From Chitinophagaceae bacterium (GTDB lineage Bacteria > Bacteroidota > Bacteroidia > Chitinophagales > Chitinophagaceae), in NCBI GenBank assembly GCA_027486835.1, contig JAIXOJ010000031.1:23937-87936 (forward strand): 64,000 nucleotides of DNA, given 5' to 3'. Under the pieces are notes generated by a model, which searched no databases, had not been told where the DNA came from, and saw only the letters and a list, made by a program, of their open reading frames with translations. The stretch's first letter is position 1. The number at the start of each line of letters is the position of its first letter. This document shows, piece after piece, positions 12,401-63,730 of the stretch. A program made the translations under genes and the position numbers.

Positions 12401-15400
12401 CCTTTGGTTATTCACTTATAGGGACAGACATACTAGGCGGGACAGGAACTGGCAGCCCATCTACCGGAGGATGGAAACATACTTTCATGGATATAGGTGG
12501 CTTGAAATGGGCTTTTCCAGCAGATAGCTCAGTAGATTTTATTTGGAAAAATGTAATGCAGCGTCAATATGCAAACCAACCAGGAATTACTAATAATTAC
12601 TACGCATACAATAATACGACTTGTGCTGATAATTATGGGGCTGGTTTCAATACCCATATTCCAGGTTTGATATTTGCCTCAAACTATTTCAGTGCACCTG
12701 TAACAAGCTATGCCAAAGCGGCATTAGGTAACAACAAGTTCTATTTTGATTCATTGGGTGGGCAGGCAGTTATGCGAAGTGGTTTCGACTCAACTTCTTC
12801 TATGGTATTTTTTGCTTGTAGGCAAGACGGAGGAGGGCATACCTACGCCAATAAGAATGAAATATTATACAGTGCATTAGGTAGAATTTGGTTTCCTAGG
12901 GTTACAACCATAGCCAGTAACCAAACCGTTTTTGATGTAGTATCTACTACTCAAGTGTCCAATGCTGTTTTGGTTAACGATTTGGGTGTTTCTCCCGATA
13001 CAGGTACCTCTTGGACATCTGGAATAGTGCCAGGCAAAATGGTGCATTTCCAAAAAACCGATAGTATCATGACCATTGCTGGTGATGCTACCAAAGCCTA
13101 TAGTTACCAATGGAACAGTGGTCCATTTGGTGGGTATCTGTATGACAATCCTTTGTTGAGTCCGCCTTCAGTTACGAAAGTCACCGATTCGTGGAATAAG
13201 TATAGATACAGCCCTTACTATTCCTTTGATAACACGGTAATGTATAACAGGCTTTCCTTTACAGACAATTTTACCCCACCATATTATTATGTACGCACCG
13301 TGGAGCGGCCATATTTCAATGGATTGATGAAAAAGGTGTTTAGAACCGTTTCGCTTATTCAGGCAACCAATCCATATGTAATTGTAGCGGATGACGTGCA
13401 AAAGGACAATGCTTCTAGCAACTATAAATGGATTACCCCTATTGCACCAGACTTAAGTGTTGACACCACTTATGCAAATCTGTCCAACAATAATTATCAA
13501 TTTGATGTGGTGTTAAAAGAACCTACGGCTACAGGCAACCGAAGATTGTTGATTCGACTACTCAATGCCAACGGAGCAATAAGCAGCACCATTGCTGGTA
13601 CCATCGACTCATCTACCTACTCCGCCACAGGTTTGCGGAGGTTTAAAATGGAAGCAAATGCTGTTGACCCGCAATTTAAAGTGCTGTTGTTTCCTTTTCA
13701 AAAAGGCGATGCACTTCCAGTAACCACTTGGAGTGCCGATAAATCCAAAGTATATGTAACCAATGCGGGGGTAACAAATACCATTTCATTTAGCTTAGAC
13801 AGCGCTGGACGAACCAATATTTTGCTCAATTCCTCCGATACCGGAATCAATTGGACAGGTGCAGTAAGCAGGGCATGGCACAATACAGGTAATTGGGCAA
13901 CAGGAAAAATACCCACTGCTACAGATAATGTGGTAATTCCTTCTGTTGGCATTACCAATATGCCTTTAGTAAGTACAGCCATTGCGTATGCCAATAAAAT
14001 ATCAATACAATCTGGGGCTACATTAACCATTGATTCTGTCTTACAACTATCTGGCGATTTGACTTTATTGGGCACTATCAATGGAACAGGTACGCTGAAA
14101 ACAACCAGCAATTCTACCAACCCCATACCCGCTGGTCAAACTTGGAATGTAAATATTGAGTACAACAAAACCACGGGTCTGCAAACCTTGGTGGGAGGCA
14201 CTTATAAAGGGCTTTCTGTGAATGCTACCACTACGGGTAGCACCTTTACCGCAGCCGCCAACTTAGTAGTCAATGGGATATTGAATATAGCCAACAATAA
14301 TACCCTAAACATGGGGGCTTACACGCTGTTGGGTAGCTTCACTAATGCTACTGGAAAGGGAATTTTGCTTACCCAAAGTACCTCAAACCCTTGTTTGGCT
14401 AGTAATGTAACTTGGGCTGGGCAGGTTCAATTCAATTCATTTAGTGGACCGCAATATGTTCCGGTTGGTACTTATCAAAACCTAAACATTAACACTACTT
14501 CATTTGGAACCATCACCGCCACTGGCAATATTTCGGTTGTAGATACACTGAAATTGGCCACCAAAGCAACACTTGATTTAGGAACGAACTTATTGGGCGG
14601 AACTTTGAAAATAGTGAGTGGAAATGGTACTTTAAAAACGGCGAATACTACTTCAACCGGTGCATTACCGCCTAATGCTACTTGGGCAGGCAATGTAGTA
14701 TACTATAGTAGCAGCACACAAACAGTTGCACCTGGAACCTATGTAAGTCTCGACCTTTCAGGAGGTAACAATGGGGCAAGAATTTTAGGCGGCAGTAATT
14801 ATCCCTCAGCTACCATCAACTTAACCGGTTCTTTGGTTGCTACCACGGGTACTGTTACTCCACTGCTAACAACCGTTATTTTCAAAGGCAACCAACAAAC
14901 GGTGCCAGCTATGCAGTTTTATAACCTAGACTTGACAGGTGGTTTTGCTACTCAATTTGTAAATGCTCCAGTGTATGTAAGTAATGTATTTACGCCAGCT
15001 TCTATCACGGACGCAGGAGGAATAGGTACGATTGTTTTCAATGGAACAGGTGCGCAAAACGTTCCTTCTTTTGGATATAATGGATTAACGCTTACAAATG
15101 CTAGAACAGGTAATATATCTATTCCTAGTACTATAACCCTTACAGGTAATTTATCCCTTGCTGGTTTGTCGTTTACTAGTGGAAGTTTGTCCTTTTCTGG
15201 TAATACCATTAACATGAGCGGAACTGCAGCACAAACAATTGATGGAAATGCAGCGATTCCTTATAACAACATCAATATTACCAATACGGCTGCAAATATT
15301 ACCGCAACCACTGACATTAGTATTAATGGGGCATTAGTAATTAATTCAGGTGCAACGCTTGATATGGGCACAGGTCAGTTGTTAGGAACAAACATCACGA

Positions 15401-18400
15401 ACAATGGTACAATTCGCACACAAAACACCAGCACCAATCCAATACCTAGTGGAATTAGTTACGGTGGAACAGTTCGCTATAATAGTACAACTGGCACTCA
15501 AAATATACTGGCTACTACGTATAATAATCTTGATATTTCTGGAGGTACTACTGCGGGTAGAATTTTACCCAATGGAGGAATAATTACCATCACTGGAAAT
15601 TATACGCCCAATACCGCAGGAACGTTAACTACCACAGGTTCTACAGTTTTATTTACTGGTAGTAATGCCCAAAGCATTGCCTCTGCCACCAGTTTTGCGA
15701 ATCTGCAATTGAATAAAACCAATACTGCTACAGCTTTAACCTTTAATGGAACTGTTTCAGTAAATGGCTTGCTATCTCTCACAAGGGGAAGAATTACAAC
15801 CTCCATCTCAGCTGGGCTTATACTTGCAAGTTCAGCTACCATTAGTGGAGGAAGTAGTACAGCTTATATAGATGGGCCACTGACTAGAACTGTTGTAGTA
15901 GGTAGTAACGTATATCCTTACCCAATAGGTATTTACAACGCCTCAACTGATTATTTCTTGCCCGATACCCTCACAGCAGCATCTGCGGCAGGTAATGTTA
16001 CCATCGCCGCTTTCAATGGAAGTACAGGTGGTACACCTGATGGTACTACCGTAACTAGCATCAGCACTAATGAATATTGGCGAGTTAGTTCAAGTGTGGC
16101 AAATACTATTGGTATTACTATTACACCTATAACACTTGGTAGCAACAGAGTGATTGCTCAGGGTAGTAGTAGTAGCACACCTGCTGCCACTTATAGTTTT
16201 AAAGGTGGTGCATTCACTAACACAAGTATTAACACTACTGGATTATCACTAACTGCCAATACCAATGCCTTCCTAGTTGCTGCCGTAGCCACCCTTACAG
16301 CACCTACCATTACAGCAGTTAGTTCTTGTGTACCATTAATTGCTGCGAATAATTTCTTTGCAAGGGATACTATAAATATAACAGGTACAGGCTTTGAAAG
16401 CGGAAGCGTGGTAACAGTAGGCGGTCAACCTGCCACTGTAGTATCTAATGCTGGTGTACCAACTACCCTTCGGGTTTTGGTTAGTGGTTCTGCTGCAACC
16501 AATATCATCACCGTGAGTAATGGTGGAGGCACCACTACTAGTGCAATAGCTACTTTAATTCCTGGTTATGCCACCAGAAACGATGGTTCTTGGAATACAG
16601 GAAGCACCTGGTTAGGTGGTGCTGTGCCTCCCGTAAACAATGCAGTTACAATCAGTAATACGCTTACGCTTGCAAGCAGTGTAGTTAATATTGGCAACAT
16701 GACGATTAACAGTAGCGCTTCAGTAAGTGCAGGAGGTATTGGTATGACCTTTAACGCGGGCATTACCATCACCAATAACGGCGCTTTTAGCTCTAGCAAT
16801 ACAGTTACTTTTAATGGTGTTGCTACTATTTCGGGTATTAATGCCATCACTTTTAATAACGTAACTACGGCGAGTGCATTAACATTTACAACTGCACCAA
16901 CTATCAATGGAAATTTAACCCTCAATAGTGGAGCATCCATTTTAGGCAATAGTCCTACTTACGGAGGAAGTGCTACGCTAGCTTACAATACGGGTGCTAC
17001 TACCCAAGTAGGTGTTGAATGGGCTGCTGGTTTAGCAAGCGGTGCAGGTGTACCACAAAACGTAACCATCGGTGCTGCTGTAGGCAATACAGTAGTTAGT
17101 TTCGGAACATCAAATACTTATCGACAGCTTAATGGCGCGCTCACTATCAGTGCAGCTACTACGGGAAATGGATTGATTTTGAGTACCGTAAGTGGGGGAG
17201 ATTTAAGAGTAGCAGGTGCAAGTGGTATTTCCGCCACACAAACTGCCACCAACGCTTATGGAAATGTGCCAGGTGGATTGGTTTGCAATGGCAGAATGGT
17301 CTTTTTCGTAGCTGCATCTGGAGCTCAATCACTTACAGGGCCTGCAACTGGTAATCCTTTGTCGCTAGATTACCTAACCATTGGTACAAATAGTTCTTCA
17401 ACCAACTCTATTAATATCGGTAGTGATTTGGCTATCACAGCTATTAATGGTGGAGCCCCTATTATTCAAACCAATTTACCTACAAGTTCAGTATCTGGTG
17501 GCACTTATATCAATGCCAACAATTCAGCGGTGTCCACTAGGAATGTAACCTTGGGTACTGTTGGGCAAACTTGTACGGGTACGGCCTATATAAGAGGGGG
17601 TGGAAGCAATCCAGCAAGCGTAACAATTAATGGAAACGGTACAGGAACTTTAAACTTAAATATCGACTTCGGCGGAGGCAACTCCAATGTAAATACCCTT
17701 ACTATTAGTAACGCCAATGTGGCTTTAGCCGCAGCCTTAACCGTGAAAGGTGCATTCAATCTTAATAGTGGAAGTTTCGATGTAGGTGCATTTAGTTTTT
17801 CGCCTAATAGCACATCCACTATCGGCGGAACGCTTAATTTATCATCCGTTACTGGCACAAAAACTTTCACCGGATTGGTTACTATCAACAGTGGCGGAAT
17901 TTGGAATAATACTGGAAATTCAGCAGTTACTTTCCAAGGGGGCATTACCAACAATGGCACATTCAATGCTGGCACTGGTACGCAAACCTTTAATACCAAT
18001 AACCAAGCATTAGCGGGTACAATCACTTGTGCTAATCTAACTGTTACCAGTCCTACTGTGCTTACCAATAATGGTACACTCACCGTTTCTACTGCACTTT
18101 CTGGTACGGGTACACTAACACAAGGGGTGTCTGATGTGCTCAACTTAAATGGTACTTATACGATAACCACTATAAATGCAACAGCTACAGACAATACCGT
18201 CAATTTCAATGGTGCTGCTGCGCAAACCATACCTGCCAATAGTTACTACCATTTGGGTATTGGTGGCACAAGAAACAATAATACCAATGTTACGCTTGCC
18301 AGCGGCACCATCAACATTGCCGGTAATTATACCCGTACTGCTGTGTTTAGTGGTACGGGCAAGTTGGATGCTGCAACTGGTACCCTTGTTTTTAACGGTA

Positions 18401-21285
18401 CGGTTGACCAAACCATCACAGCTAGCACTGCCGAAACCTTCAATAACCTCACCATCAACAATACCAAATCGGGTGGGGGAGTGGTTAATCTTGCCGTGAG
18501 TAACCTTACTTTATCTGGAACAACCAATGCACTCACCCTTACTAGCGGAAAGCTATCCTTGGGGTCAAGCAACCTTACCCTCAATAGTACTGGAGTCATT
18601 AATAGTGTGTCTGCTACAAATTATATTGTTGCAAGCGGCTCTGGTAGATTGGTAAGAAAAGCAGTAACCAGTGCAACCATTTTCCCAATAGGCACCGCTA
18701 CTAGTTATACCCCAATTACGGTAACGAACAACACAGCCTCAGATATAAGCGTGGGTGTAAGCCCTACCATCACCAATGCAGTTTCTGATTACTCCAAAAT
18801 TGTCAATTTACAATGGTCTGTTGCTTCGGCTTCTGCTACAACTTCTAGTACTTTATTGTATCAATTCAATACGGCTGACCAAGCTGCTTCTTTCTTAGTG
18901 GGCAATAGTTGTGAATTGGGCTATTATTCCAATGCTTATTCTGTAAGTACACTTGGAATACCTACTTCTCTTGGGTCAGGTGCTTATACACTCAATAAAT
19001 CTTCTTTAGCATTTGCTGCTGGAACTACTTATTTGTCTGTATTGGGTAATGTGAATGCTATTTCAAACAATTGCACAATTGGTACTTATGTGGGTGCAAA
19101 TGGGGGAGATGCCAATGCTGCTGGGAACTGGTGCGGAGGTGTGCCTACTGCGGCTACCAATATTATTATTGCTACCAATGCCCCTAGGTTAACAGCCAAC
19201 TTGTCAGTAAATAACATCACAAACAATGCAGGTATTCAATTGAACGGCTTTGCGCTCACCGTTAATGGAAACCTAATTGGTGCTGGTACCATAACTGGTT
19301 CGCCTACGTCTAGTTTGGTGGTGAAGGGTACAGGAACCCTTTTGTTGGATCAGTCCACCAATGGTACTACCAATGTGTTGAGTAATTTGACTATTAATAG
19401 CAGTGGAACAGTTACCCTAGGTAATGCGCTTCAAATAAAAAATGCAGTGTTTCCTACGGCTGGTGTTTTAGCTACTGGGGGTAATCTTACCCTATTGTCA
19501 AGTGCAACGGGTACTGCTCGCTTTGCTCAGGGCAATGTTAATGGTGGTTATGTTACAGGTAATATTACCACACAAGCATTCATTCCTGCAAAAGCGGCTA
19601 GAAAATATAGTTTCATTGGAAGCCCTGTTAGCCAATTGATAAGCAATGCTTGGCAGCAGCAAGTATATATTACTGGTGCTGGTTCGGGCGGTACTACCTG
19701 TGGTACTGGTGGTACACAATATAACAGTAATGGATTCGACAAAACCCTGACTAATACACCAAGTATGTTTACCTATAATGTAGCTCCTGTAAATGGTACA
19801 CGATGGGTATCCATTCCAAGCACCAATGCTACCAACCTCGCTCCGGGTAAAGGCTATCGCATCAATATTAGAGGTGACAGAAACCAAGGCACATGTAACG
19901 ACCAATTAAATAGCAACTCTCCTGCTGCGCCTACCAGTGTGGTGTTGAGTGCTACGGGTGCATTAACACAAGGCAACTTTGCAGTAACCCTTAACGATAC
20001 AGCCCAACATTTATACACTTTATTGGCAAACTCTTACCCCAGTCAAATTAGCTTTTCGGCTTTTAAAGCGGACAATTCCGCCATCAATAATAAAATGTGG
20101 ACGTATAGCCCATTGGGTAATGGCAATTACACCACCTATTCTAATGGCATCATTACCAATGCGGTAAGTGGTTACACCGATACCAATGGCGATTACATTG
20201 CCATTGCACAAGCGTTTTTTGTGGAGGCCAACAAAACAGGTACTACGGTTACTTTCCGCGAAACACATAAAGTGGACTCTGCTATCCCCAACTTTAATTA
20301 TTTCGGCACCGCCAATGCACACTTGTTACGCCTTGGCATGTACGCAACCAATGATTCGTTACTCGATGAAACGGCAGTGCGATTCAACCAATACGGTGGG
20401 GCAGATTATCAGCAAGCATGGGATGCCATTTCTTTTAGTGGAGGCAACCAATCCCTTGCAAGCCTCAAGGGGGCTACTGCTTTGGCCATTGCAACACATA
20501 GCGACACGCTACAGATAGACACCATCCATCTAGCAGTTCGCAGCAGCACTTTAGGTAATTTCCAATTGAAATTAAAAGATTGGAGTGGATTTGATGCCGC
20601 TACTTCCTTATTGCTCAAAGACAATTTCTTAGGCAATGTCCATAATCTCTTGGTGAATCCAGTGTATGATTTTACCGTAACCTCCGATACGGCTAGCAGT
20701 GGAAAACGACGTTTTGAGTTATGGTTTAATAAAACGGGCACATTACCTGTTCGTTTTGTAGCGGTTAACGGCAAGCGGGAAACTGGCAAGGCCATCATAC
20801 ATTGGAAAGTTGCCGACGCTGCTCGTCTTAGCCAATTTGTACTAGAGAAAAGGCAGGAGTCTGGTCAATTTTTTCCCATCACTACTGTATTAGCCACCCA
20901 AGCCACTGACTATGATGCAGTTGATTTGCAACCAAATAATGGGCTAGATCAGTACCGCATTAAAGCCTTGGATTTGGATAGGAAAGCCTATTACAGCCCC
21001 ATCATACAATTAACTGGCCGCGACAATGTGCCTAGCTTTAAGATTTACCCAACAGTAGTTGCTAGTCAGCAGTTACAATTGCACATTAATGACCAAGCTT
21101 CTGGCGAGGCCATGATAGATATGGTAGATGTTTTAGGCAAAATAGTATGGCGTAAGGCTGTTCGTTACACCGTTGGTGCAACCACTCAGGTGTTATCATT
21201 ACCACAGGTAGCTACAGGTACTTATCAGGTACGAGTTACTCAACAAGGCAGCCTTCGCTCCACCACCTCAATTGTGGTGCAATAA
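9427..21285 (+). CDS. Giant (3952 aa) T9SS-secreted surface protein (paralog 2). Order: signal peptide, LamG/concanavalin-like N-terminal region, heparinase II/III-like (alginate-lyase superfamily) region, long beta-helical-like Thr/Asn/Gly repeats, IPT/TIG-like segment, shared pre-CTD module, type-A T9SS CTD
   Basis: One uninterrupted 11.86-kb ORF. The N-terminus MKVMFTRLLVLLCCLYATNVVAQ is a signal peptide. An HPRIF... segment parallels HPRVLV... of the separate heparinase-like ORF at 49300. GGGHTYANKNEILYSALGRIWF resembles the HxHxD..G..l core of that family. The C-terminal FKIYPTVVASQQLQLHINDQASG...YQVRVTQQGSLRSTTSIVVQ is a CTD. Confidence 0.85.
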   Translation: MKVMFTRLLVLLCCLYATNVVAQYYPGGMSKSKINLWFDASDTATLTKSSGLITSWKDKSNNLSAAQATTSRQPILTSLNGKNIVEFNGTQGLDIAYNSLLVPNQGFNVAQVLYVYADAPTNVTDFRSGTFSTNSGNTGSPYIGVRYVVVDGKYEIAANRNNTGYYYSQYEDLRGKWAMASTTCNAANSKVNFYYNGAGTLSSTVSGYVNNNTGGAIGNRFGNYSAIHWGVSETVLAGYDAKNSGRRIIDLYLATKWGMRDTLQNSYGNLYAPLDGAFTNNLVGIGIESAGDTTNETGSNNGLGLQNINGVTGFLRKEGSYVLAADNGLSGNVTMATGITRWNRSWYVNKTDVSGYGGLLKIVFDFTSYGQANALDTVNNNYYLLYNPTNGYYNSDSNYLVTVKSYQQVAGTKQLAFLLDGIDVKNGFYTLVYAPKNGSMAALPNLASFVAASVSVSPSPTIPSVYSGNTFNYVQIDSSAITYPVAYYKIYASVNGGTLTAIDSTNGTTNYYGHYNLTNGNTYLYKISAVYAPGKESALSDSAIGIPNNNTPQWLILPQYSESGKIFMAAAAPLSGLPLKFSFENVAGGGHSSGFQRASQFTDSLLTDGNTYSYRYRFMDTVIGAASLSGWSTTQSVLMTDSIQGGYTYNMTYLDPTTPFAPYGIGPANILPSNQDVTGLRFIKHVPAVGQHPRIFCSPSDSTEIRYRLKNTSAGVAASRFIHAYTTLLQLGNSGYNRNTFYSRDTLGNIYFSNVGATDSKALYDSLALGDIGVTNNYSNLWGGNYAKMAYNFSHEAMECWIYRNQIDTVTNTSYATRAKKLATALTVWAKKVVADNTIVPNLNMSNFGGLHNAIAYDFLYDQMTKNQQDTIRMAILKTLPDSSKEHGCWAPSYTTTTNWATFGGEITCNIAVEGEPGYSAKDSGLLRGWVKTVWNFLTYGVYPTGNMYEGIGKNRLNEFLLIAMAKRGYSVLGHPNIRAYAQKYLPAVVQPFGYSLIGTDILGGTGTGSPSTGGWKHTFMDIGGLKWAFPADSSVDFIWKNVMQRQYANQPGITNNYYAYNNTTCADNYGAGFNTHIPGLIFASNYFSAPVTSYAKAALGNNKFYFDSLGGQAVMRSGFDSTSSMVFFACRQDGGGHTYANKNEILYSALGRIWFPRVTTIASNQTVFDVVSTTQVSNAVLVNDLGVSPDTGTSWTSGIVPGKMVHFQKTDSIMTIAGDATKAYSYQWNSGPFGGYLYDNPLLSPPSVTKVTDSWNKYRYSPYYSFDNTVMYNRLSFTDNFTPPYYYVRTVERPYFNGLMKKVFRTVSLIQATNPYVIVADDVQKDNASSNYKWITPIAPDLSVDTTYANLSNNNYQFDVVLKEPTATGNRRLLIRLLNANGAISSTIAGTIDSSTYSATGLRRFKMEANAVDPQFKVLLFPFQKGDALPVTTWSADKSKVYVTNAGVTNTISFSLDSAGRTNILLNSSDTGINWTGAVSRAWHNTGNWATGKIPTATDNVVIPSVGITNMPLVSTAIAYANKISIQSGATLTIDSVLQLSGDLTLLGTINGTGTLKTTSNSTNPIPAGQTWNVNIEYNKTTGLQTLVGGTYKGLSVNATTTGSTFTAAANLVVNGILNIANNNTLNMGAYTLLGSFTNATGKGILLTQSTSNPCLASNVTWAGQVQFNSFSGPQYVPVGTYQNLNINTTSFGTITATGNISVVDTLKLATKATLDLGTNLLGGTLKIVSGNGTLKTANTTSTGALPPNATWAGNVVYYSSSTQTVAPGTYVSLDLSGGNNGARILGGSNYPSATINLTGSLVATTGTVTPLLTTVIFKGNQQTVPAMQFYNLDLTGGFATQFVNAPVYVSNVFTPASITDAGGIGTIVFNGTGAQNVPSFGYNGLTLTNARTGNISIPSTITLTGNLSLAGLSFTSGSLSFSGNTINMSGTAAQTIDGNAAIPYNNINITNTAANITATTDISINGALVINSGATLDMGTGQLLGTNITNNGTIRTQNTSTNPIPSGISYGGTVRYNSTTGTQNILATTYNNLDISGGTTAGRILPNGGIITITGNYTPNTAGTLTTTGSTVLFTGSNAQSIASATSFANLQLNKTNTATALTFNGTVSVNGLLSLTRGRITTSISAGLILASSATISGGSSTAYIDGPLTRTVVVGSNVYPYPIGIYNASTDYFLPDTLTAASAAGNVTIAAFNGSTGGTPDGTTVTSISTNEYWRVSSSVANTIGITITPITLGSNRVIAQGSSSSTPAATYSFKGGAFTNTSINTTGLSLTANTNAFLVAAVATLTAPTITAVSSCVPLIAANNFFARDTINITGTGFESGSVVTVGGQPATVVSNAGVPTTLRVLVSGSAATNIITVSNGGGTTTSAIATLIPGYATRNDGSWNTGSTWLGGAVPPVNNAVTISNTLTLASSVVNIGNMTINSSASVSAGGIGMTFNAGITITNNGAFSSSNTVTFNGVATISGINAITFNNVTTASALTFTTAPTINGNLTLNSGASILGNSPTYGGSATLAYNTGATTQVGVEWAAGLASGAGVPQNVTIGAAVGNTVVSFGTSNTYRQLNGALTISAATTGNGLILSTVSGGDLRVAGASGISATQTATNAYGNVPGGLVCNGRMVFFVAASGAQSLTGPATGNPLSLDYLTIGTNSSSTNSINIGSDLAITAINGGAPIIQTNLPTSSVSGGTYINANNSAVSTRNVTLGTVGQTCTGTAYIRGGGSNPASVTINGNGTGTLNLNIDFGGGNSNVNTLTISNANVALAAALTVKGAFNLNSGSFDVGAFSFSPNSTSTIGGTLNLSSVTGTKTFTGLVTINSGGIWNNTGNSAVTFQGGITNNGTFNAGTGTQTFNTNNQALAGTITCANLTVTSPTVLTNNGTLTVSTALSGTGTLTQGVSDVLNLNGTYTITTINATATDNTVNFNGAAAQTIPANSYYHLGIGGTRNNNTNVTLASGTINIAGNYTRTAVFSGTGKLDAATGTLVFNGTVDQTITASTAETFNNLTINNTKSGGGVVNLAVSNLTLSGTTNALTLTSGKLSLGSSNLTLNSTGVINSVSATNYIVASGSGRLVRKAVTSATIFPIGTATSYTPITVTNNTASDISVGVSPTITNAVSDYSKIVNLQWSVASASATTSSTLLYQFNTADQAASFLVGNSCELGYYSNAYSVSTLGIPTSLGSGAYTLNKSSLAFAAGTTYLSVLGNVNAISNNCTIGTYVGANGGDANAAGNWCGGVPTAATNIIIATNAPRLTANLSVNNITNNAGIQLNGFALTVNGNLIGAGTITGSPTSSLVVKGTGTLLLDQSTNGTTNVLSNLTINSSGTVTLGNALQIKNAVFPTAGVLATGGNLTLLSSATGTARFAQGNVNGGYVTGNITTQAFIPAKAARKYSFIGSPVSQLISNAWQQQVYITGAGSGGTTCGTGGTQYNSNGFDKTLTNTPSMFTYNVAPVNGTRWVSIPSTNATNLAPGKGYRINIRGDRNQGTCNDQLNSNSPAAPTSVVLSATGALTQGNFAVTLNDTAQHLYTLLANSYPSQISFSAFKADNSAINNKMWTYSPLGNGNYTTYSNGIITNAVSGYTDTNGDYIAIAQAFFVEANKTGTTVTFRETHKVDSAIPNFNYFGTANAHLLRLGMYATNDSLLDETAVRFNQYGGADYQQAWDAISFSGGNQSLASLKGATALAIATHSDTLQIDTIHLAVRSSTLGNFQLKLKDWSGFDAATSLLLKDNFLGNVHNLLVNPVYDFTVTSDTASSGKRRFELWFNKTGTLPVRFVAVNGKRETGKAIIHWKVADAARLSQFVLEKRQESGQFFPITTVLATQATDYDAVDLQPNNGLDQYRIKALDLDRKAYYSPIIQLTGRDNVPSFKIYPTVVASQQLQLHINDQASGEAMIDMVDVLGKIVWRKAVRYTVGATTQVLSLPQVATGTYQVRVTQQGSLRSTTSIVVQ

Positions 21286-21532: not shown

Positions 21533-21787
21533 ATGACAACAAAAGGAATCATTGCAACAGTAGTAATTGCCAGTATGATAGTGGCACAGCCATTAATGGC
21601 ACAGTTTAGTGGTTCTGGGCCATCCACTTTAGCTCCCCCCATACCGCCCCCCCCACCACCAGTACCAGAAGTTCCTTTCGATGGTGGAATGAGCATTGTA
21701 TTACTTGCCAGTGGGATAGGCTATGCTTCAAAAAAATTAAAACAGCTTAAAGGCACACCAAACCAAGATACCAGTTTCATCGGCTAA
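21533..21787 (+). CDS. Mini-protein A: signal peptide + Pro-rich linker + conserved C-terminal PFDGG–TM helix–KK motif (putative sorting/anchor signal)
   Basis: 84 aa: MTTKGIIATVVIASMIVAQPLMAQ | FSGSGPSTLAPPIPPPPPPVPEVP | FDGGMSIVLLASGIGYASKKLKQLK. It lies 247 bp downstream of giant gene 2. The gene at 55126 shows near-identity in the C-terminal 22 residues. Confidence 0.6.
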   Translation: MTTKGIIATVVIASMIVAQPLMAQFSGSGPSTLAPPIPPPPPPVPEVPFDGGMSIVLLASGIGYASKKLKQLKGTPNQDTSFIG

Positions 21788-21792
21788 ATAAA

Positions 21793-21835
21793 TGGGCTAA
21801 TGCCATGCACATACAATGTGCATGGCATTAGCCCA
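21793..21835 (+). terminator. Perfect 19-bp-stem hairpin (gggctaatgccatgcacat / acaa / atgtgcatggcattagccc) directly after the mini-protein A stop
   Basis: Exact inverted repeat read from the sequence. No strong T-run follows, so it may be a terminator or an RNA-stability element. Confidence 0.5.
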
Positions 21836-21854
21836 AATTATTGCTTTACGAAAA

Positions 21855-21955
21855 AGTCGGTTTCTAGATACGCTGTGGGTAATTCCCCTCTTGAGGGGTG
21901 GCGGAACGCCGGGGTGGCAATTCCGCACAAGTTATACAACTAGGAAACATTGGCT
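21855..21955 (+). repeat. Structured ~100-bp repeat element, copy A (two hairpins: cccctc-tt-gagggg and ggcg-gaa-cgcc; conserved ggggtggcaattccgcacaagt core)
   Basis: About 85% identical to copy B at 27605..27715. The second hairpin differs by two compensatory double substitutions. Confidence 0.6.
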
Positions 21956-22126
21956 TCCAATCTCTTGCTCTGCTGATAATACTCTTCACTTGAAGGAGAA
22001 TATGGTTCTTATTTGAGCGATTGGCAAAACAGCACAATAACCACCCTCATCCATGAGTTTTATAAATGCCTATTACAACCATTTACTGAATTAGATAATT
22101 GTTTGTTTTTTAAAAGGCGTTATCAA

Positions 22127-22684
22127 TTAATTGATAAAGTCTTCCACATTGGGCATTTTCTCGAGTTGGTTATTTAATTTCTCTTCCATTTGCGAAAAGG
22201 TTTCATTTCCATTTAAAACTTTGGAAGCATATTCGTACGGATATAGGGATAATACAACTCCATTTTTGTTATATTTTAAGGTCATACCTCTTAATGGATA
22301 TTCTGGTTTTTCATCTTTATATAGTTTAAAACCATACTTTTTAATCAGAAAGTCGCTAAATGAAATAGCTAAAAACAAAGTTGCCTGTGCCTCGCCAAGT
22401 TGATAAGCTTTACAATACAATACAAATCCAAAACCTGCTTGGTCTGTCTGGTCAAGATTATTTGGGTGATTGATTGGGTCTTCCATTTTTCTTGTAATCT
22501 TATTGGCAATAAAATAACCTTCAACCATTTTTAAGCAACCATCAAGCATTTCAGCATCAATATTATCCTCTCTATATCTTTTTTCAAAATATTCGGTTGT
22601 GTGGATTCCATCAATGTTTAAACCTTCCTTTTCCGTTTCTTCTTCTTTCTTAGTTGAAAAGAATAGTTTTCTAAAAAAACTCAT
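22127..22684 (-). CDS. Hypothetical protein (185 aa)
   Basis: Clean ORF convergent with the mini-protein gene. No recognisable motifs. Confidence 0.45.
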   Translation of the reverse strand: MSFFRKLFFSTKKEEETEKEGLNIDGIHTTEYFEKRYREDNIDAEMLDGCLKMVEGYFIANKITRKMEDPINHPNNLDQTDQAGFGFVLYCKAYQLGEAQATLFLAISFSDFLIKKYGFKLYKDEKPEYPLRGMTLKYNKNGVVLSLYPYEYASKVLNGNETFSQMEEKLNNQLEKMPNVEDFIN

Positions 22685-22839
22685 ACTGTTTGTTTATAAT
22701 TTCTATTGATTAAATGTTTGGCGTTAACGAAGGCTTCCAATTTCTTTTCCACTATGGTATTAACCCTATCGTTGCAATATTCCCCCTTTTTTGTTTAAAA
22801 TAAAGATGCATTGCTGAACTTGCCGGACAGCAGCAATAA

Positions 22840-23721
22840 CTACCAATTCAATGCCTCTGGAATTTGATCAAACAATTTTTTCCAATTACGGTCTTCTGTC
22901 TTGTATAAGACCGTTTTTATAGCATACCAAACTGAAGGGTGTTGATAATTTTGGATATAAGCTCTATAGCTTTCTTTAATTTCATTTTTTATATGCTCTA
23001 GTGGTCGTGTAAAATCGAAACGTCCTTCGTTTGGTCGTAGTACTTCTTGAAGTTCTTCTATTGTCTTTGAGTTTGATATTCTCACAATTCTTTCCAAGCA
23101 ATCATAGTAATGATTTGCAGCACTTTTTCTTGCTGCTACTAACACATCCCTTTCATTCAATTCTAAAATACGAAGTGTATAATTGGCTTTATTGAAACTT
23201 TTTTTGTCTTCTTCGGTGGAAATAATTATTTCGAATCGATGGGTGTAGGGGTTCAACACCATAAAATCATTCGGATTTTCTGTCCTTGGATTGATGAATG
23301 CAATTTCATTATGCGGAGGTTTATTCCCACGTTCCGTTTTTGTTACGCTATTGTCTGTAGCGTTGATAACATAGCATTTGTCTAGTTTAAATCCTGAATT
23401 ACAGGTCTTGCAAGCCAAGAGATAATTATCCCATACAAAAGCATGTTCAGGAAAGAATGATTTTGGATAAATATGTTCTATATCCCCTGCCTCATTTTGC
23501 TCACAATAATTACAAACACCCGTAAAAACGCACAAGTCAAATAATTCGCTTTTGATCGTTTCAAATGCCGCTTTTGTTAGTCCTGAACTTTTTGCATTCC
23601 AAAGGGCTTTTGCTTTTGCAGCCTGCTGTTCAAAGGTGGTTTCAGCATTTATTTGAGCTTGCAAATCAGCTAAGGTTTTCTGCGTATTGGCATCTAAGGT
23701 TTTAGTTAGCAATCGAATCAT
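22840..23721 (-). CDS. HNH-nuclease-motif protein, PtuB-like partner of the upstream ATPase (Septu-like)
   Basis: Carries CNYCEQNEAGDIEHIYPKSFFPEHAFVWDNYLLACKTCNSGF, a CxxC...H...P...N...CxxCN HNH pattern. Its start overlaps the ATPase stop by 20 bp. Confidence 0.65.
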   Translation of the reverse strand: MIRLLTKTLDANTQKTLADLQAQINAETTFEQQAAKAKALWNAKSSGLTKAAFETIKSELFDLCVFTGVCNYCEQNEAGDIEHIYPKSFFPEHAFVWDNYLLACKTCNSGFKLDKCYVINATDNSVTKTERGNKPPHNEIAFINPRTENPNDFMVLNPYTHRFEIIISTEEDKKSFNKANYTLRILELNERDVLVAARKSAANHYYDCLERIVRISNSKTIEELQEVLRPNEGRFDFTRPLEHIKNEIKESYRAYIQNYQHPSVWYAIKTVLYKTEDRNWKKLFDQIPEALNW

Positions 23722-25036
23722 CGGTACTTAGTATTTGTAGTAACTCATGCCTTTCGTTTTCTTCCTCGTTAGTGATTTTGCCAAGTGCCGATAACACGTT
23801 TAGTCTTCCCAAACGTTCCAGTTTTTCAGCAGATTTAGCAGACCGCACTGCCTCTTTGCCAAATAACTCCGTACCGTAAGCATCTAGTATGTTGCCATAA
23901 ATGAGCTTTTCTTTTTCAGTTCCCGTAATTTCATTGATAACTACCGCCCCGTTTGCAGCTTCCAATCGCCAGATACTCCCCTTATCACAAGCACGGCATA
24001 TCAAAGGGCTATGTGTTGTTACGATAAATTGTAAATCGGGAAAATGTTGTGTAAACCAACCACCTATTTTGGTTTGCCAGCTTGGATGCAAGTGGGCATC
24101 TACCTCATCTATCAAAACAACCCCAGGCAGTTTTATTTGATTGGTAGCTGCTAAATCTTTAAACACCGGTTCATGACCAAAAGTAATAATCAGCTGACGA
24201 ATCAATTCAAAAGTCAAACTAAGAATAGAACGAAAACCATCACTTAATTGCGTAACAGGAAAATTATTACCAGATGCATCTTTAAAAATGGGCAGTTCAT
24301 CCACTTTTTCAAACCTTACCCCATTTGGCAGCAATCCACTTTTATTTACAAAATGTTTTATGTTATCTAAAATAATACCCGATTCAGATTCCTCTAGGCC
24401 ATATTCCTTTTCCTTTAGCCGTTTATAATCAAGGCTTTTTATCCAAGCTAGCACTTCGGTTAATGCAGCACCTTCATCAAAAACGCTTAAGTGCGCGCCA
24501 ACTTTAGGTGACGAAAGATACACTTTGTCTAATTCTGGATTTCCTCCAGTAAATCTTCTAAAGGAACCAAAGCCTGCCGAGAACCATCCTTTGCCAGTAC
24601 CCCAGTTGTAATTATTTTCTTTATCTGGGTGTTTTATAGATTTCAAATTTGCATCCCCAATTTCAAAATTATAATTATCACGTAGTATTACTTTTTTGTC
24701 AGTATCAATAAAAAGAATCGCATTGCAAATAAGATCTAACTCTTCTATATTTGTTTTGCTTTTACCTGTATTTTCATCGATTTCTTTATCAGTAGTAATA
24801 AAAACACATGTACTCCCAAACGCTTCCCCCTTTCTTAACCATTCATTCCAATCAGCACGGATAGCATGAGCTTCAATAGGACCAATCAAGGCCAATGAAA
24901 CTGCTTTTATGAAAGTAGATTTACCAGAACCATTGTCTCCAATCAATACATTCCATCCCGCATAATGGGGATGAAAGTCGATTGTAAGGGCTTCAATTAA
25001 TCCAATATTTAAAAGCTTTACTCTATCTATATACAT
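23702..25036 (-). CDS. ABC/SMC-like ATPase of the AAA_15/AAA_21 (OLD/RecF-like) family, PtuA-like
   Basis: Has Walker A GDNGSGKST, ABC signature LSDGFRSILSL, Walker B VVLIDEVDAHLHP and H-loop VTTHSP. 444 aa, immediately upstream of the HNH gene. Confidence 0.7.
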   Translation of the reverse strand: MYIDRVKLLNIGLIEALTIDFHPHYAGWNVLIGDNGSGKSTFIKAVSLALIGPIEAHAIRADWNEWLRKGEAFGSTCVFITTDKEIDENTGKSKTNIEELDLICNAILFIDTDKKVILRDNYNFEIGDANLKSIKHPDKENNYNWGTGKGWFSAGFGSFRRFTGGNPELDKVYLSSPKVGAHLSVFDEGAALTEVLAWIKSLDYKRLKEKEYGLEESESGIILDNIKHFVNKSGLLPNGVRFEKVDELPIFKDASGNNFPVTQLSDGFRSILSLTFELIRQLIITFGHEPVFKDLAATNQIKLPGVVLIDEVDAHLHPSWQTKIGGWFTQHFPDLQFIVTTHSPLICRACDKGSIWRLEAANGAVVINEITGTEKEKLIYGNILDAYGTELFGKEAVRSAKSAEKLERLGRLNVLSALGKITNEEENERHELLQILSTDDSIAN

Positions 25037-25305
25037 TAAGTACCAATTTAAAATTCGTGATATTTTTTCTCAACTTGATTACAAGTTCTTTAATTTGGTA
25101 AAGAAAAGCGATTTATTGCTTTGTGAGATTATTGGGGTAATAAAAGAAAAAAGCCCTGGGCGAAATCTTTGCCTTGTGCATCTCTCCCAAATATTCAAAT
25201 CCTATTTTTAAAAGGCAACACCAAACCTAATTCGAATAACACCTTTCTATTTCCAAATAAGCCCCAGCAGCAGGTTTGCGACAGCAATAGCCCTAAAACG
25301 CCGAT

Positions 25306-25520
25306 AAACATCAATCGAGGTTCAATAAACATCAATCAAGGTCTGATAGACATCAATCGAGGTCTGATAGACATCAATCAAGGTCTGATAGACATCAATC
25401 GAGGTTCGATAGACATCAATCAAGGTCTGATAGACATCAATCGAGGTCTGATAGACATCAATCGAAGTGCGATAGACATCAATCGAGGTGCGATAGACAT
25501 CAATCGAGGTCTGATAGACA
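25306..25520. repeat. Tandem array of ~10.5 copies of a 21-bp unit (agacatcaatcgaggtctgat, with cg/ca and ct/gc variants)
   Basis: Repeats read directly from the sequence, with no spacers between copies. The predicted ORF 25169..25528 is just the in-frame translation of the repeat. Confidence 0.9.
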
Positions 25521-25700: not shown

Positions 25701-26378
25701 ATGGAATTTTATAGTATCCCAGCAAGTGTATCACAATTTGACGTTTACCAAGAATCGCTTTATGATTTAGTTACCAAAAATGCCTCTGATTGGGGTATCC
25801 CCGCAGCCGTTGTGGCCAAATTAACCGCATTGCGCAACAAATGGGCACCAGCCTTCAAATTGCAAGCGGACGAATACACCGCTAGCAAGGCCAATAAAAT
25901 TACTCGGGATACTATAAGAAAGGAATATGAGACCGAGATTAAAAACATTATTGAACAATATTTACTCAACAAAAGCACCATTGCCGAAGATAAAAAGGGA
26001 ATGATTGGGATAAAAACCAAAAAAACACCTACTTCCACCAAGGGCGAATTAAAAGGATTTCCAGTTATTGAAGTTCGTATCAATGGTTCGTTGGCACATA
26101 GCATTGTTTTTCGCGATTCCATTGCTACTAAAAGCAAGGCGAAACCAAAGGGTGTTGCTTTTTGCGAATTGCGTTATAAAGTGATAGATACTGGCACGGC
26201 TGGGCCTATTAGTGCAGATGATTTTACAGGATATGAGCTTATTTCTTCTAGTGGTGATAATGTTCGCTTTCCAGAGACGTACCGCGGCAAAACCGCCCAC
26301 TACTTTGCTCGCTGGCGCAGAATAGATGGCTCAACAGGCTCTTGGAGTGCTTTTACAGATGGTGGAGTAATTAGTTAA
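25701..26378 (+). CDS. Hypothetical protein (225 aa), founder of a small paralog family
   Basis: Clean ORF 180 bp downstream of the 21-bp array. A frameshifted paralog fragment with the same downstream terminator sequence lies at 46140..46560 (minus). Confidence 0.55.
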   Translation: MEFYSIPASVSQFDVYQESLYDLVTKNASDWGIPAAVVAKLTALRNKWAPAFKLQADEYTASKANKITRDTIRKEYETEIKNIIEQYLLNKSTIAEDKKGMIGIKTKKTPTSTKGELKGFPVIEVRINGSLAHSIVFRDSIATKSKAKPKGVAFCELRYKVIDTGTAGPISADDFTGYELISSSGDNVRFPETYRGKTAHYFARWRRIDGSTGSWSAFTDGGVIS

Positions 26379-27522: not shown

Positions 27523-27604
27523 CATAATGTTAGCAACATACGTTATGCAACAGGAAAACTTTGGCCCTCCCGTACTATTTTCACTGTTTCACTTCTTTAA
27601 AAAA

Positions 27605-27715
27605 AGCCAGTTTCTAAATACTCGGTGGACAATTCCCCTCTCGAGGGGTGCCCAAAGGGCGGGGTGGCAATTCCGCACAAGTCATACAACAGGAAAACTT
27701 TGGCCGCCACAAACT
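27605..27715 (+). repeat. Structured ~100-bp repeat element, copy B (hairpins cccctc-tc-gagggg and gccc-aaa-gggc)
   Basis: Aligns with copy A. It is flanked by the direct repeat caacaggaaaactttggcc at 27549 and 27698. Confidence 0.6.
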
Positions 27716-46139: not shown

Positions 46140-46560
46140 CCCTGATTATCCTGTACTCAAACAAAAAAAGCCAGACCAGACAACTTTAGTAGCCCATTCG
46201 AGCTTAAATAATAATAACCTATTCAGAGATTACAATTATTCCGCCATCTGTAAAAGTACTCTAAGGATCAGTGGAGTCATATTTTCTGAGGCAGCAAGCA
46301 AAATAGTGTGCGATTTTTAGGCGGTGCGTCTCAGGAAAGCGAATACTATCACCACTAGAAAAAATTAACTCATATCCTGTAAATTCTTCTGCACTAATTG
46401 GTCCAGCTGTGCCAGTATCTATTACATTATAACACAATTTACAAAAGCAACACCCTTTGGTTTCGCCTTACTTTTAGCAGCTATGGAATTGCGAAAAACA
46501 ATGCTGTGTGTCAATGAACCATTGATACGATCTTCAATTAATGGATGTCCTTTTTATTCG
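46140..46560 (-). pseudogene. Frameshifted, 5'-truncated paralog of the 225-aa gene at 25701..26378, including its downstream terminator sequence
   Basis: Minus-strand translation gives ...IEDRINGSLTHSIVFRNSIAAKSKAKPKGVAFVNCVIM* then, after a frameshift, DTGTAGPISAEEFTGYELIFSSGDSIRFPET... This matches ...IEVRINGSLAHSIVFRDSIATKSKAKPKGVAF...DTGTAGPISADDFTGYELISSSGDNVRFPET of the intact gene. Downstream it carries taagctcgaatgg(g/a)ctacta. Confidence 0.6.
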
Positions 46561-46579
46561 CTTCAAACCAGCCGCTATT

Positions 46580-46750
46580 TGACGGCAACCAAACGAAGCC
46601 TCCGCGAGCCTCTCGTCAACTGACGGCAGCCAAACGGAGCCTCCGCGAGCCTCTCGTCAACTGACGGCAACCAAACGGAGCCTCCGCGAGCCTCTCGTCA
46701 ACTGACGGCAATCAAACGGAGTCTCCGCGACCCTCTCGTCAACTGACGGC
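46580..46750. repeat. Tandem array of 4.2 copies of a 41-bp unit (tgacggcaaccaaacggagcctccgcgagcctctcgtcaac)
   Basis: Read directly from the sequence. It lies immediately 5' (on the coding strand) of the pseudogene. Confidence 0.9.
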
Positions 46751-46988
46751 TGAAAAAAGAAGCTTTTTACAATAAGAAATCAATTGAGGGAAAGCCCATC
46801 GAAGCATCCAACCGCTTGAAATCAATTGATGGCGAAAGATTAACCCTCTTTGCAGTTAAGTATTTGGAGAAATCTGCTTGTCATGCGTTGGTTGGTTTCG
46901 GGGTTTAGTTGGAGTGACTACAAATTTTCTTTTCTTTACTGAGCGCTTTTGTATCTCAGCATTTCAAATATGGTTGCTGCTTTTTAAT

Positions 46989-63490: not shown

Positions 63491-63730
63491 CTTTCTTTGC
63501 CCAGAGTGCTTGTATTGTTTATTGTATCCACTAAAAAATGTGTTGCTTAATTTTAAATAGTTAAGACAATCTGTTTGCTCGAGAATTATTTCGTGTCAAC
63601 AACTGAAGTTTAGCCTAAGAAATATGTAATTATTCTGTAGATGGCGGTAATATAAAACTCATTTTTTGCAAAATCAATTTACAATTAAATTAATTGTTTA
63701 GGCTTCTTTGGTTATTTCTCTAAGATAATT

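What the first reader, a model, noticed from the sequence alone, without database searches (positions are those of the whole stretch)
22840..25036. Septu-like two-gene defence candidate (ABC-type ATPase + HNH nuclease) in a repeat-flanked accessory patch
A 444-aa AAA_15/AAA_21-type ABC ATPase (Walker A GDNGSGKST, signature LSDGFRS, Walker B LIDEVDAHLHP) sits upstream of a 293-aa protein with a CxxC...H..P...N...CxxCN HNH motif. The two overlap by 20 bp. This matches the PtuA–PtuB gene order of Septu-family anti-phage systems. The HNH partner is longer than typical PtuB and has a distinct C-terminal half. The pair is bounded on one side by structured repeat copy A and a hypothetical gene. On the other side it is bounded by a 10-copy 21-bp tandem array. 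This is the kind of context where defence islands sit.
Basis: partly seen in the sequence, partly recalled or inferred. Interest (0 to 1): 0.6.

Follow-up and report, generated by a model that had tools for sequence, protein, structure and literature searches.

The report
Ordinary stand-alone Septu (PtuA–PtuB) defence operon
The two overlapping genes are an intact, textbook two-gene Septu anti-phage system (PtuA ATPase plus PtuB HNH nuclease) in a Chitinophagaceae genome, from a common, already catalogued subfamily, so the call is right but the locus is ordinary.

Summary
A 444-aa ABC-type ATPase (23702-25036, minus strand) and a 293-aa HNH protein (22840-23721, minus strand) overlap by 20 nt, and all catalytic motifs are intact.

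Both match PADLOC Septu profiles end to end: PtuA E=4.8e-135 and PtuB E=4.4e-75. AlphaFold models of both find only solved PtuA or PtuB chains as significant or top PDB matches.

In 31 of 31 related loci with enough upstream DNA, a ptuA homologue lies directly upstream of ptuB. The overlap is exactly 20 nt in 25 of them.

No reverse transcriptase or retron RNA is nearby, so this is stand-alone (type I) Septu.

- **"Distinct C-terminal half".** The PADLOC PtuB model covers the whole protein. More than 300 full-length relatives of about 289 aa exist, mostly in Bacteroidota. Only the last ~50 residues (invariant HPSVW motif, terminal Trp) extend beyond solved PtuB structures.
- **"Defence island".** No other gene scanned in the window is a credible defence-family match, and the neighbours are housekeeping genes. 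The downstream 185-aa gene, the 21-bp array and the 109-nt repeats do not travel with PtuAB elsewhere. Low GC (0.31-0.37 against 0.41-0.43) does suggest horizontal acquisition.

Verdict: a new member of a known kind, of low interest.

The parts
23702..25036 (-). ptuA: 444-aa ABC/OLD-type ATPase of Septu (Walker A K39, signature S265-D266-G267, Walker B D310/E311, H-loop H342; C-terminal helices 400-435)
   Evidence: - PADLOC PDLC00269 PtuA, E=4.8e-135, protein 1-440 against profile 1-433 of 446.
- Pfam AAA_21, AAA_15 and SMC_N.
- PDB sequence hits to E. coli Septu PtuA 8ee4 and to retron Ec83/Ec78 PtuA.
- AF2 model pTM 0.77; the top 50 Foldseek PDB hits are all PtuA chains.
- The motifs are invariant in 23 aligned homologues.
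22840..23721 (-). ptuB: 293-aa HNH (beta-beta-alpha-Me) nuclease of Septu. Zn-finger C70/C73/C104/C107, catalytic H83, N99, N108, helical C-terminal domain 173-292 with a clade-specific tail (~242-293, HPSVW 261-265, W280, W293)
   Evidence: - PADLOC PDLC00340 PtuB, E=4.4e-75, protein 1-293 against profile 1-268 of 268.
- NCBIfam TIGR02646 and retron PtuB hits, both below cut-off.
- Profile against PDB: Ec78 PtuB 1.6e-13, E. coli Septu PtuB 8ee7_C 7e-5.
- H83 aligns with Ec78 PtuB H57.
- AF2 pLDDT 90.2, pTM 0.83; the top 8 Foldseek PDB hits are all PtuB chains and the next hit has E>2.
23702..23721 (-). 20-nt ptuA/ptuB coding overlap (the ptuB ATG lies inside the last codons of ptuA); inferred translational coupling
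   Evidence: Read directly from the sequence. The same 20-nt overlap is found in 25 of 31 related loci; the other six have 8-32 nt. It is also seen in Runella slithyformis L001 and in L126 and L127.
22127..25036 (-). Low-GC segment holding hyp185, ptuB and ptuA; probably horizontally acquired. hyp185 (22127-22684) is a neighbour, not a system component
   Evidence: - GC is 0.314 (hyp185), 0.355 (ptuB) and 0.372 (ptuA), against 0.41-0.43 for orf225, SGNH, GT, dnaB and the giant ORF.
- No hyp185 homologue was found next to PtuAB in 84 loci.
- hyp185 homologues sit in unrelated contexts.

Best explanation
This is an intact stand-alone (type I) Septu anti-phage system.

**Shown here.**
- ptuA and ptuB are co-oriented, and the ptuB start codon lies 20 nt inside ptuA.
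- PtuA is an ABC/OLD-family ATPase with all nucleotide-binding and hydrolysis motifs.
- PtuB is a zinc-stabilised HNH nuclease with its catalytic His and Asn residues, plus a helical C-terminal domain.

**Inferred from characterised homologues.**
- The overlap couples translation of the two genes.
- PtuA oligomerises (a hexamer in E. coli Septu) and holds PtuB through its C-terminal helices, giving a 6:2 complex.
- ATP binding keeps the nuclease silent.
- Phage infection relieves the inhibition. PtuB then cuts nucleic acid, which stops phage replication at the cost of host growth.

The substrate and the trigger of this Chitinophagaceae version are unknown.

The extra ~50 C-terminal residues of PtuB most likely enlarge the helical PtuA-docking domain.
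For: - **Sequence profiles.** PADLOC best hits are full-length PtuA (449 bits) and PtuB (251 bits).
- **Folds.** The top 8 PDB matches of the PtuB model are PtuB chains (E 2.5e-5 to 9e-3; next hit E>2), and the top 50 of the PtuA model are all PtuA chains.
- **Catalytic residues.** They are present and invariant. H83 aligns with Ec78 PtuB H57, whose H57A mutant loses defence (PMC12819146). K39/D310 and H83/N99 correspond in motif and spacing to K43/D316 and H75/N91, which are essential in Septu EcB88 (PMC13096335).
- **Synteny.** PtuA lies directly upstream on the same strand in 31 of 31 subfamily loci and in 38 of 38 more distant loci. The overlap is exactly 20 nt in 25 of 31.
- **No retron.** The only unassigned ORFs of at least 120 aa between 21.3 and 27.9 kb are hyp185 and orf225, and neither has a Pfam, PADLOC or NCBIfam hit. 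There is no Rfam hit. The retron-type PtuA equivalog scores 125 bits against a cut-off of 500, and the protein has the stand-alone size of 444 aa.
- **Mechanism literature.** The 6:2 complex, ATP inhibition and DNA nicking of E. coli Septu are as summarised in PMC12640716. tRNA-Tyr cleavage is from PMC13096335. A tail-fibre trigger and PtuB-CTD/PtuA-CTE docking are described in PMC12819146.
Against: - There is no functional evidence for this locus or for any member of its Bacteroidota-rich clade.
- Identity to structurally or functionally characterised PtuA and PtuB is low (15-20% in structural alignments).
- Pfam HNH hits are just below the gathering score, and TIGR02646 is below its cut-off.
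- The PtuA model has low confidence over 122-186.
- Oligomeric state, ATP regulation, substrate and trigger are all transferred by homology. Reported substrates differ between homologues.
- The locus is not in a defence island.
Confidence: 0.9

Rival explanations
1. A modification-dependent (type IV-like) restriction pair: an ATPase plus an HNH nuclease that attacks modified phage DNA, rather than acting as an abortive Septu effector.
For: Both proteins also hit the paired PADLOC models named mREase_IV. PDLC03660 matches the ATPase at 9e-44 over 33-406. PDLC03661 matches the HNH protein at 5e-11.
Against: These hits are far weaker than the Septu hits (148 against 449 bits; 41 against 251 bits) and are only partial for the HNH protein. 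Structural neighbours are exclusively PtuA and PtuB. The two categories may in any case be overlapping annotations of one superfamily.
Confidence: 0.04
2. A retron-associated (type II Septu, retron I-A) effector pair whose RT and ncRNA were missed.
For: NCBIfam and PDB sequence searches hit retron Ec78/Ec83 PtuA and PtuB. PADLOC ATPase_I-A and HNH_I-A also hit.
Against: - There is no ORF with RT similarity and no room for one. Upstream of ptuA lie a 21-bp array and a divergent 225-aa ORF without RT hits.
- There are no Rfam matches.
- The retron equivalog scores are 125 of 500 and 52 of 150 bits.
- PtuA, at 444 aa, lacks the N-terminal extension of the 542-552-aa retron PtuA chains (PMC12819146).
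- Homologous loci in Runella, Chitinophaga and metagenomes are also two-gene.
Confidence: 0.02
3. A three-gene system in which the downstream 185-aa gene (22127-22684) is a functional partner, such as an immunity or regulatory factor.
For: It is on the same strand, only 155 nt downstream. No convincing terminator lies between it and ptuB. It shares the low GC content.
Against: No homologue lies next to PtuAB in 84 related loci. Its 108 homologues, up to 76% identical, sit in unrelated neighbourhoods without PtuAB. It has no PADLOC, Pfam or NCBIfam hit.
Confidence: 0.03
4. A housekeeping DNA-repair ATPase (RecF/RecN/SMC-like) with an unrelated HNH gene beside it.
For: Pfam SMC_N scores 41 bits, just above its cut-off. 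Weak N-terminal hits to RecN, RecF and Rad50 models were found.
Against: Those hits cover only the P-loop N-terminus and lie far below family cut-offs: RecN 31 of 408 bits and RecF 22 of 172 bits. Strict gene pairing with a conserved overlap argues for one two-part machine.
Confidence: 0.01

Closest known systems
Stand-alone Septu (type I) PtuAB, e.g. E. coli Septu (PDB 8EE4/8EE7/8EEA/8SUX) and Septu EcB88
   Same: - Two co-oriented genes, ptuA then ptuB.
- An ABC/OLD-type ATPase of similar size (444 aa against a 465-aa PDB chain) with Walker A/B, signature and H-loop motifs.
- An HNH nuclease with CxxC...H...N...CxxC(N) and a helical C-terminal domain.
- No RT.
- Fold matches to 8eea and 8sux chains.
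   Different: - Low sequence identity, about 16-20% in structural alignments.
- PtuB is 293 aa against 243 aa for 8ee7_C: about 10 extra N-terminal and 35-50 extra C-terminal residues carrying an invariant HPSVW motif and a terminal Trp.
- The host is Chitinophagaceae rather than Enterobacteriaceae or Bacillus.
- The activity is untested.
PADLOC Septu subfamily models PDLC00269 (PtuA) and PDLC00340 (PtuB)
   Same: Both align end to end at E=4.8e-135 and 4.4e-75, so this is the subfamily the locus belongs to. About 320 PtuB homologues of ~289 aa are found in Runella, Chitinophaga, Pedobacter, Fluviicola and Saprospiraceae. There are 352 clusters (at 50% identity) with E<=1e-30.
   Different: The nearest relatives are only 56-60% identical. 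No member of this clade has been characterised, as far as the papers searched show.
Retron type I-A (Ec78/Eco7, Ec83/Eco4) PtuAB, 'type II Septu'
   Same: Homologous ATPase and HNH effector. These are the best PDB sequence hits for PtuB. The catalytic His is aligned, and PtuA's C-terminal helices dock the PtuB C-terminal domain.
   Different: There is no RT, ncRNA or msDNA. PtuA lacks the N-terminal extension. The NCBIfam equivalog cut-offs are not reached.
Other OLD-family ATPase defence systems (Gabija GajA, PARIS AriA/AriB, OLD)
   Same: A related ABC ATPase core. PADLOC AriA scores 7e-26 and PDB AriA 2.6e-4.
   Different: The nuclease partner is HNH on a separate protein, not TOPRIM or DUF4435. 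The scores are much weaker.

Membership tests
Septu type I (stand-alone PtuAB) | PtuA: ABC/OLD-type ATPase matching PtuA profiles over its full length | tested here: met
   PADLOC PDLC00269 E=4.8e-135, protein 1-440 against profile 1-433 of 446. The top 50 Foldseek PDB hits are all PtuA chains.
Septu type I (stand-alone PtuAB) | PtuA ATPase motifs intact (Walker A Lys, Walker B Asp/Glu, signature, H-loop) | tested here: met
   K39, D310/E311, S265-D266-G267 and H342 are present, and invariant in 23 homologues.
Septu type I (stand-alone PtuAB) | PtuB: HNH nuclease matching PtuB profiles | tested here: met
   PADLOC PDLC00340 E=4.4e-75, 1-293 against 1-268 of 268. Profile against PDB PtuB gives 1.6e-13 (Ec78) and 7e-5 (8ee7_C). 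The top 8 Foldseek hits are all PtuB. Caveat: Pfam HNH (20.6 against 21.4 bits) and TIGR02646 (37 against 52 bits) fall just below their curated cut-offs.
Septu type I (stand-alone PtuAB) | HNH catalytic His and Asn residues and Zn-binding Cys pairs present | tested here: met
   C70, C73, H83, N99, C104, C107 and N108 are invariant. H83 aligns with Ec78 H57. The motif is present in 36 of 36 loci.
Septu type I (stand-alone PtuAB) | ptuA immediately upstream of ptuA-co-oriented ptuB in one operon | tested here: met
   There is a 20-nt overlap in the window. PtuA lies upstream in 31 of 31 and 38 of 38 related loci.
Septu type I (stand-alone PtuAB) | Absence of an associated reverse transcriptase and ncRNA | tested here: met
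   There is no RT-like ORF and no Rfam hit.
Septu type I (stand-alone PtuAB) | Confers phage resistance dependent on the ATPase and HNH activities | not testable with these tools
   This needs plaque assays with K39A, E311Q and H83A mutants.
Septu type I (stand-alone PtuAB) | PtuA oligomer binding PtuB (6:2) with an ATP-inhibited nuclease | not testable with these tools
   No multimer prediction or biochemistry was available. Only the monomer folds agree.
Retron type I-A / type II Septu | Adjacent retron RT and msr/msd ncRNA; PtuA with N-terminal extension; NCBIfam NF041760/NF041761 equivalog scores | tested here: not met
   No RT or ncRNA was found. Scores are 125 of 500 and 52 of 150 bits. 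PtuA is 444 aa against 542-552-aa retron PtuA chains.
RecF/RecN/SMC repair ATPases | Full-length match above the family cut-off | tested here: not met
   RecN scores 31 of 408 bits, RecF 22 of 172 and SMC 19.5 of 729. The hits cover the N-terminal P-loop only.
Gabija / PARIS / OLD | ABC ATPase coupled to a TOPRIM or DUF4435 nuclease | tested here: not met
   Neither protein has a TOPRIM hit. The AriA hit is weaker (7e-26) than the PtuA hit. The partner is an HNH protein.
Defence island (contextual claim) | Several defence systems clustered nearby | tested here: not met
   PADLOC scans of the 30 other ORFs examined across the 64-kb window gave no credible hit. The weak CARF-like hit is a MarR regulator.

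The most novel reading that the evidence does not exclude
The ~50-residue C-terminal tail of PtuB marks a Bacteroidota-rich Septu clade. It spans ~242-293 and carries an invariant HPSVW motif, W280 and a terminal Trp, and no solved PtuB has it. In this reading the nuclease has gained an extra module that changes how it docks on PtuA, or that senses a different trigger or substrate than the E. coli systems do. The strictly conserved but unmodellable PtuA segment 145-186 could be its partner surface.
Probability: 0.12. Interest if true: 0.3.

Novelty: new member of a known kind. Interest (0 to 1): 0.12.

Why it matters
It matters little beyond annotation. The locus adds one more uncharacterised Septu operon from a freshwater or soil Chitinophagaceae lineage, and a survey preprint already lists Septu among the most frequent bacterial defence systems (bioRxiv 10.1101/2024.10.26.620412).

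Three modest points of value remain:
- It documents a large, coherent long-PtuB clade with a conserved 20-nt ptuA/ptuB overlap and a conserved C-terminal tail that no structure yet covers.
- It shows that Septu here is a solitary low-GC insertion among housekeeping genes, not part of an island.
- It separates the flanking repeats and the tandem array from the defence system.

Tried and rejected
1. **Empty-site test.** I fetched 80 loci around the orthologous GT4 glycosyltransferase from Chitinophagaceae genomes (best 87% aa identity; Hydrotalea, Sediminibacterium and Parasediminibacterium relatives). None has PtuAB, hyp185, orf225 or SGNH within 10 kb. No other window gene is syntenic there either, so the test cannot define insertion borders and is inconclusive.
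2. **Own contig.** An exact-sequence look-up of the window's PtuB found no gene record, so the organism is known only at about family level.
3. **The 109-nt repeat as an element boundary.** The two copies are only 82% identical with compensatory stem changes, so they are not fresh target-site duplications. They have no Rfam family and their MFE is not better than shuffles. The core is absent from 127 fetched loci and from metagenome contigs. I rejected it as part of the system.
4. **The 21-bp tandem array as a Septu feature.** No comparable array lies beside ptuA in Runella or Chitinophaga. Two other intergenic arrays occur elsewhere in the window. I rejected it as system-specific.
5. **hyp185 as a third component.** Rejected.
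6. **Phage or plasmid carriage.** Viral contigs hold only distant, partial relatives of at most 49% identity. There is no match in GenBank phages. Two plasmid matches are 31-36% identical.
7. **Defence island.** Rejected.
8. **Key paper.** The Li et al. 2024 Septu structure paper (PMC12318543) is not held, so its findings are cited second-hand from PMC12640716 and PMC12819146.
Full report
**Observation**

One is 23702..25036 (444 aa) and the other is 22840..23721 (293 aa). They share 20 nt, at 23702-23721.

The quoted motifs are all present:
- In the ATPase: Walker A GDNGSGKST at 33-41 (K39), signature LSDGFRS at 264-270, Walker B LIDEVDAHLHP at 308-318 and an H-loop TTHSP at 340-344.
- In the second protein: CNYC at 70-73, DIEH at 80-83, N99 and CKTCN at 104-108.

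The flanking features are also real:
- The 21-bp tandem array runs 25303-25520, with 10.4 copies at 89% matches.
- The 109-nt repeat at 21851-21959 has a direct partner at 27601-27709, 82% identical.

**What it is**

Against PADLOC, both proteins have full-length best hits to Septu models:
- PtuA PDLC00269: E=4.8e-135, residues 1-440 on profile positions 1-433 of 446.
- PtuB PDLC00340: E=4.4e-75, residues 1-293 on profile positions 1-268 of 268.

Pfam sees AAA_21, AAA_15 and SMC_N in the first protein. It gives borderline HNH hits in the second.

NCBIfam's retron-Ec78 PtuA and PtuB equivalogs hit but stay far below their cut-offs, at 125 of 500 and 52 of 150 bits. RecN and RecF score 31 of 408 and 22 of 172 bits, over the P-loop only.

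By sequence, the ATPase matches solved PtuA chains: E. coli Septu 8ee4 and retron Ec83/Ec78. The HNH protein matches solved retron PtuB chains. With a profile of 24 homologues it also reaches the E. coli Septu PtuB 8ee7_C.

AlphaFold models support the same assignment:
- PtuB: pLDDT 90.2, pTM 0.83. Its top 8 PDB matches are all PtuB chains, and the next hit has E>2.
- PtuA: pTM 0.77. All 50 listed PDB matches are PtuA chains.

**Catalytic competence**

In an alignment of 24 PtuB homologues, C70, C73, H83, N99, C104, C107 and N108 are invariant. H83 aligns with H57 of retron Ec78 PtuB, and the H57A mutant abolishes defence (PMC12819146).

In Septu EcB88, PtuA K43 and D316 and PtuB H75 and N91 are essential (PMC13096335). 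Here the corresponding motif residues are K39, D310, H83 and N99, and the His-to-Asn spacing is the same 16 residues.

The PtuA motifs are invariant in 23 homologues. Both ORFs cover 100% of their homologues, so neither is a pseudogene.

**Synteny**

The ~289-aa PtuB homologue follows a PtuA homologue in all four loci retrieved individually:
- Runella slithyformis: 20-nt overlap.
- Chitinophaga sancti: 32-nt overlap.
- Two metagenomic contigs: 20-nt overlap each.

Neighbours differ in each case.

Across 84 loci, including 80 metagenome loci retrieved with the PtuB alignment:
- All 31 full-length subfamily loci with at least 300 bp of upstream DNA have ptuA directly upstream on the same strand.
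- The overlap is exactly 20 nt in 25 of those 31.
- All 38 more distant loci with enough upstream DNA also have a PtuA-like gene upstream.

This is a conserved two-gene unit. The overlap suggests translational coupling, which is an inference.

**Type**

Retron-linked PtuAB is called type II Septu and makes up about 7.6% of Septu systems (PMC12640716).

No retron is present here:
- Between 21.3 and 27.9 kb, the only ORFs of at least 120 aa besides ptuA and ptuB are hyp185, orf225 and an SGNH hydrolase. None resembles a reverse transcriptase.
- Rfam finds nothing at gathering thresholds, and only a chance miRNA-like hairpin at E=0.62.
- PtuA has the stand-alone size, not the 542-552 aa of the retron PtuA chains.

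So this is stand-alone, type I Septu.

**The "distinct C-terminal half"**

This claim is overstated, for four reasons:
- The PADLOC PtuB model covers the protein to its last residue.
- Profile alignment to Ec78 PtuB runs from 67 to 241, against chain positions 40-205 of 216.
- About 320 homologues of ~289 aa align over 100% of the length at 46-58% identity. They come mostly from Bacteroidota: Runella, Chitinophaga, Pedobacter, Fluviicola and Saprospiraceae.
- An exhaustive profile search finds 352 clusters (at 50% identity) with E<=1e-30. Most of the best ~100 are 283-312 aa with full-length coverage.

What is true is narrower. The solved PtuB chains are 215-266 aa, and the last ~50 residues here go beyond them. 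Those residues form helices 241-292 and carry invariant H261-P-S-V-W265, W280, F284, P288 and W293.

[quoted passage not shown] The simplest reading is therefore an enlarged docking domain, which is an inference.

**Context**

This is not a defence island. PADLOC scans of the 30 other ORFs examined across the window found only a weak CARF-like hit. Pfam shows that hit to be a MarR regulator.

The neighbours are:
- a 3952-aa protein with a weak T9SS sorting domain;
- an SGNH hydrolase, DnaB, HemD, LpxA and LpxC/FabZ, and pirins;
- a GT4 glycosyltransferase.

The GC content of hyp185, ptuB and ptuA is 0.314, 0.355 and 0.372. Adjacent genes are at 0.41-0.43 (profile). That fits horizontal acquisition of about 2.9 kb.

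The downstream 185-aa gene belongs to a conserved hypothetical family of Bacteroidota, with 108 homologues up to 76% identical. Those homologues occur in unrelated neighbourhoods and never beside PtuAB in the loci examined.

Two further features are not specific to the system:
- Tandem arrays also occur at 46539-46784 and 63688-64000. They are absent beside ptuA in Runella and Chitinophaga.
- The 109-nt repeats show a compensatory hairpin change. They have no family match and no copies elsewhere in the data searched.

An attempt to find an empty site in relatives failed, because no gene order is shared with the nearest available genomes, which are at most 87% identical in the GT4 protein.

**Mechanism (inferred from homologues)**

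E. coli PtuA and PtuB form a 6:2 complex that cleaves or nicks DNA on activation, and ATP binding inhibits the nuclease (Li et al. 2024, as summarised in PMC12640716).

Septu EcB88 and retron-Eco7 instead deplete tRNA-Tyr by cutting its variable loop during infection. [quoted passage not shown]

A phage tail fibre has been reported as a Septu trigger (PMC12819146).

For this locus only three things are shown: the parts list, the intact motifs and the gene coupling. Assembly, regulation, trigger and substrate are all inferred.

**Verdict**

The locus is a new, uncharacterised member of a well-known and very common defence family, from a subfamily already represented in PADLOC. I score its interest as low.

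The only mildly novel angle is the clade-specific PtuB tail, together with the conserved but poorly modelled PtuA segment 145-186.

Noticed in passing
window 21851-21959 and 27601-27709 (+): A pair of direct 109-nt repeats, 82% identical, brackets 5.75 kb. An internal hairpin changes compensatorily between the copies (GGCG-GAA-CGCC against GCCC-AAA-GGGC). There is no Rfam family, the MFE is not better than shuffles, and the 22-nt core is absent from 127 fetched loci and from metagenome contigs.
   Followed up: partly
window 25303-25520; 46539-46784; 63688-64000: Three intergenic tandem arrays: 21 bp x 10.4, 41 bp x about 6, and 21 bp x at least 14 (this one runs off the window end). Their units are unrelated or only weakly similar. 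Such arrays seem to be a feature of this genome rather than of the Septu locus.
   Followed up: partly
window 21793-21835: A perfect 20-bp-stem hairpin with a 3-nt loop (dG -37.9 kcal/mol, z = -9 against shuffles), with T-rich tails on both strands. It looks like a bidirectional terminator between the small 84-aa ORF and the hyp185/ptuBA unit.
   Followed up: partly
window 22127-22684 (-): A 185-aa hypothetical protein with very low GC (0.314). It belongs to a family of 108 homologues, up to 76% identical, spread across different Bacteroidota families (Flavobacterium, Pedobacter, Dokdonia, Ferruginibacter) in unrelated contexts. It has no domain hit in any library.
   Followed up: partly
window 25701-26378 (+): A 225-aa ORF divergent from ptuA. 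It has no hit in Pfam, PADLOC, NCBIfam, PHROGs or GenBank phages, and its GC (0.414) looks native.
   Followed up: partly
window 9427-21285 (+): A giant 3952-aa ORF rich in Thr, Asn, Gly and Ser. Its C-terminus has a weak T9SS sorting domain (Por_Secre_tail, 24 bits, below cut-off), so it is probably a secreted surface or adhesin protein.
   Followed up: partly
PtuA residues ~122-186 (window ~24479-24673, -): This segment holds many invariant residues (W145, G150-W-F-S153, R160-R-F162, G164-G165, H182-L-S184), yet AlphaFold confidence is below 50. It may be an oligomer or partner interface.
   Followed up: no
locus L126 1-9226: In this metagenomic contig, one of the closest PtuAB homologues (57% and 49% identity) sits directly beside a CBASS-like cluster of a patatin, a DncV-like nucleotidyltransferase and an E1/E2-like protein. 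In other genomes, then, this Septu clade does occur in defence islands.
   Followed up: no
window 21533-21787 (+): An 84-aa ORF with a hydrophobic N-terminus and a proline run (PPIPPPPPPVPEVP), with no family hit. It may be a small secreted or membrane protein, or may not be a gene.
   Followed up: no
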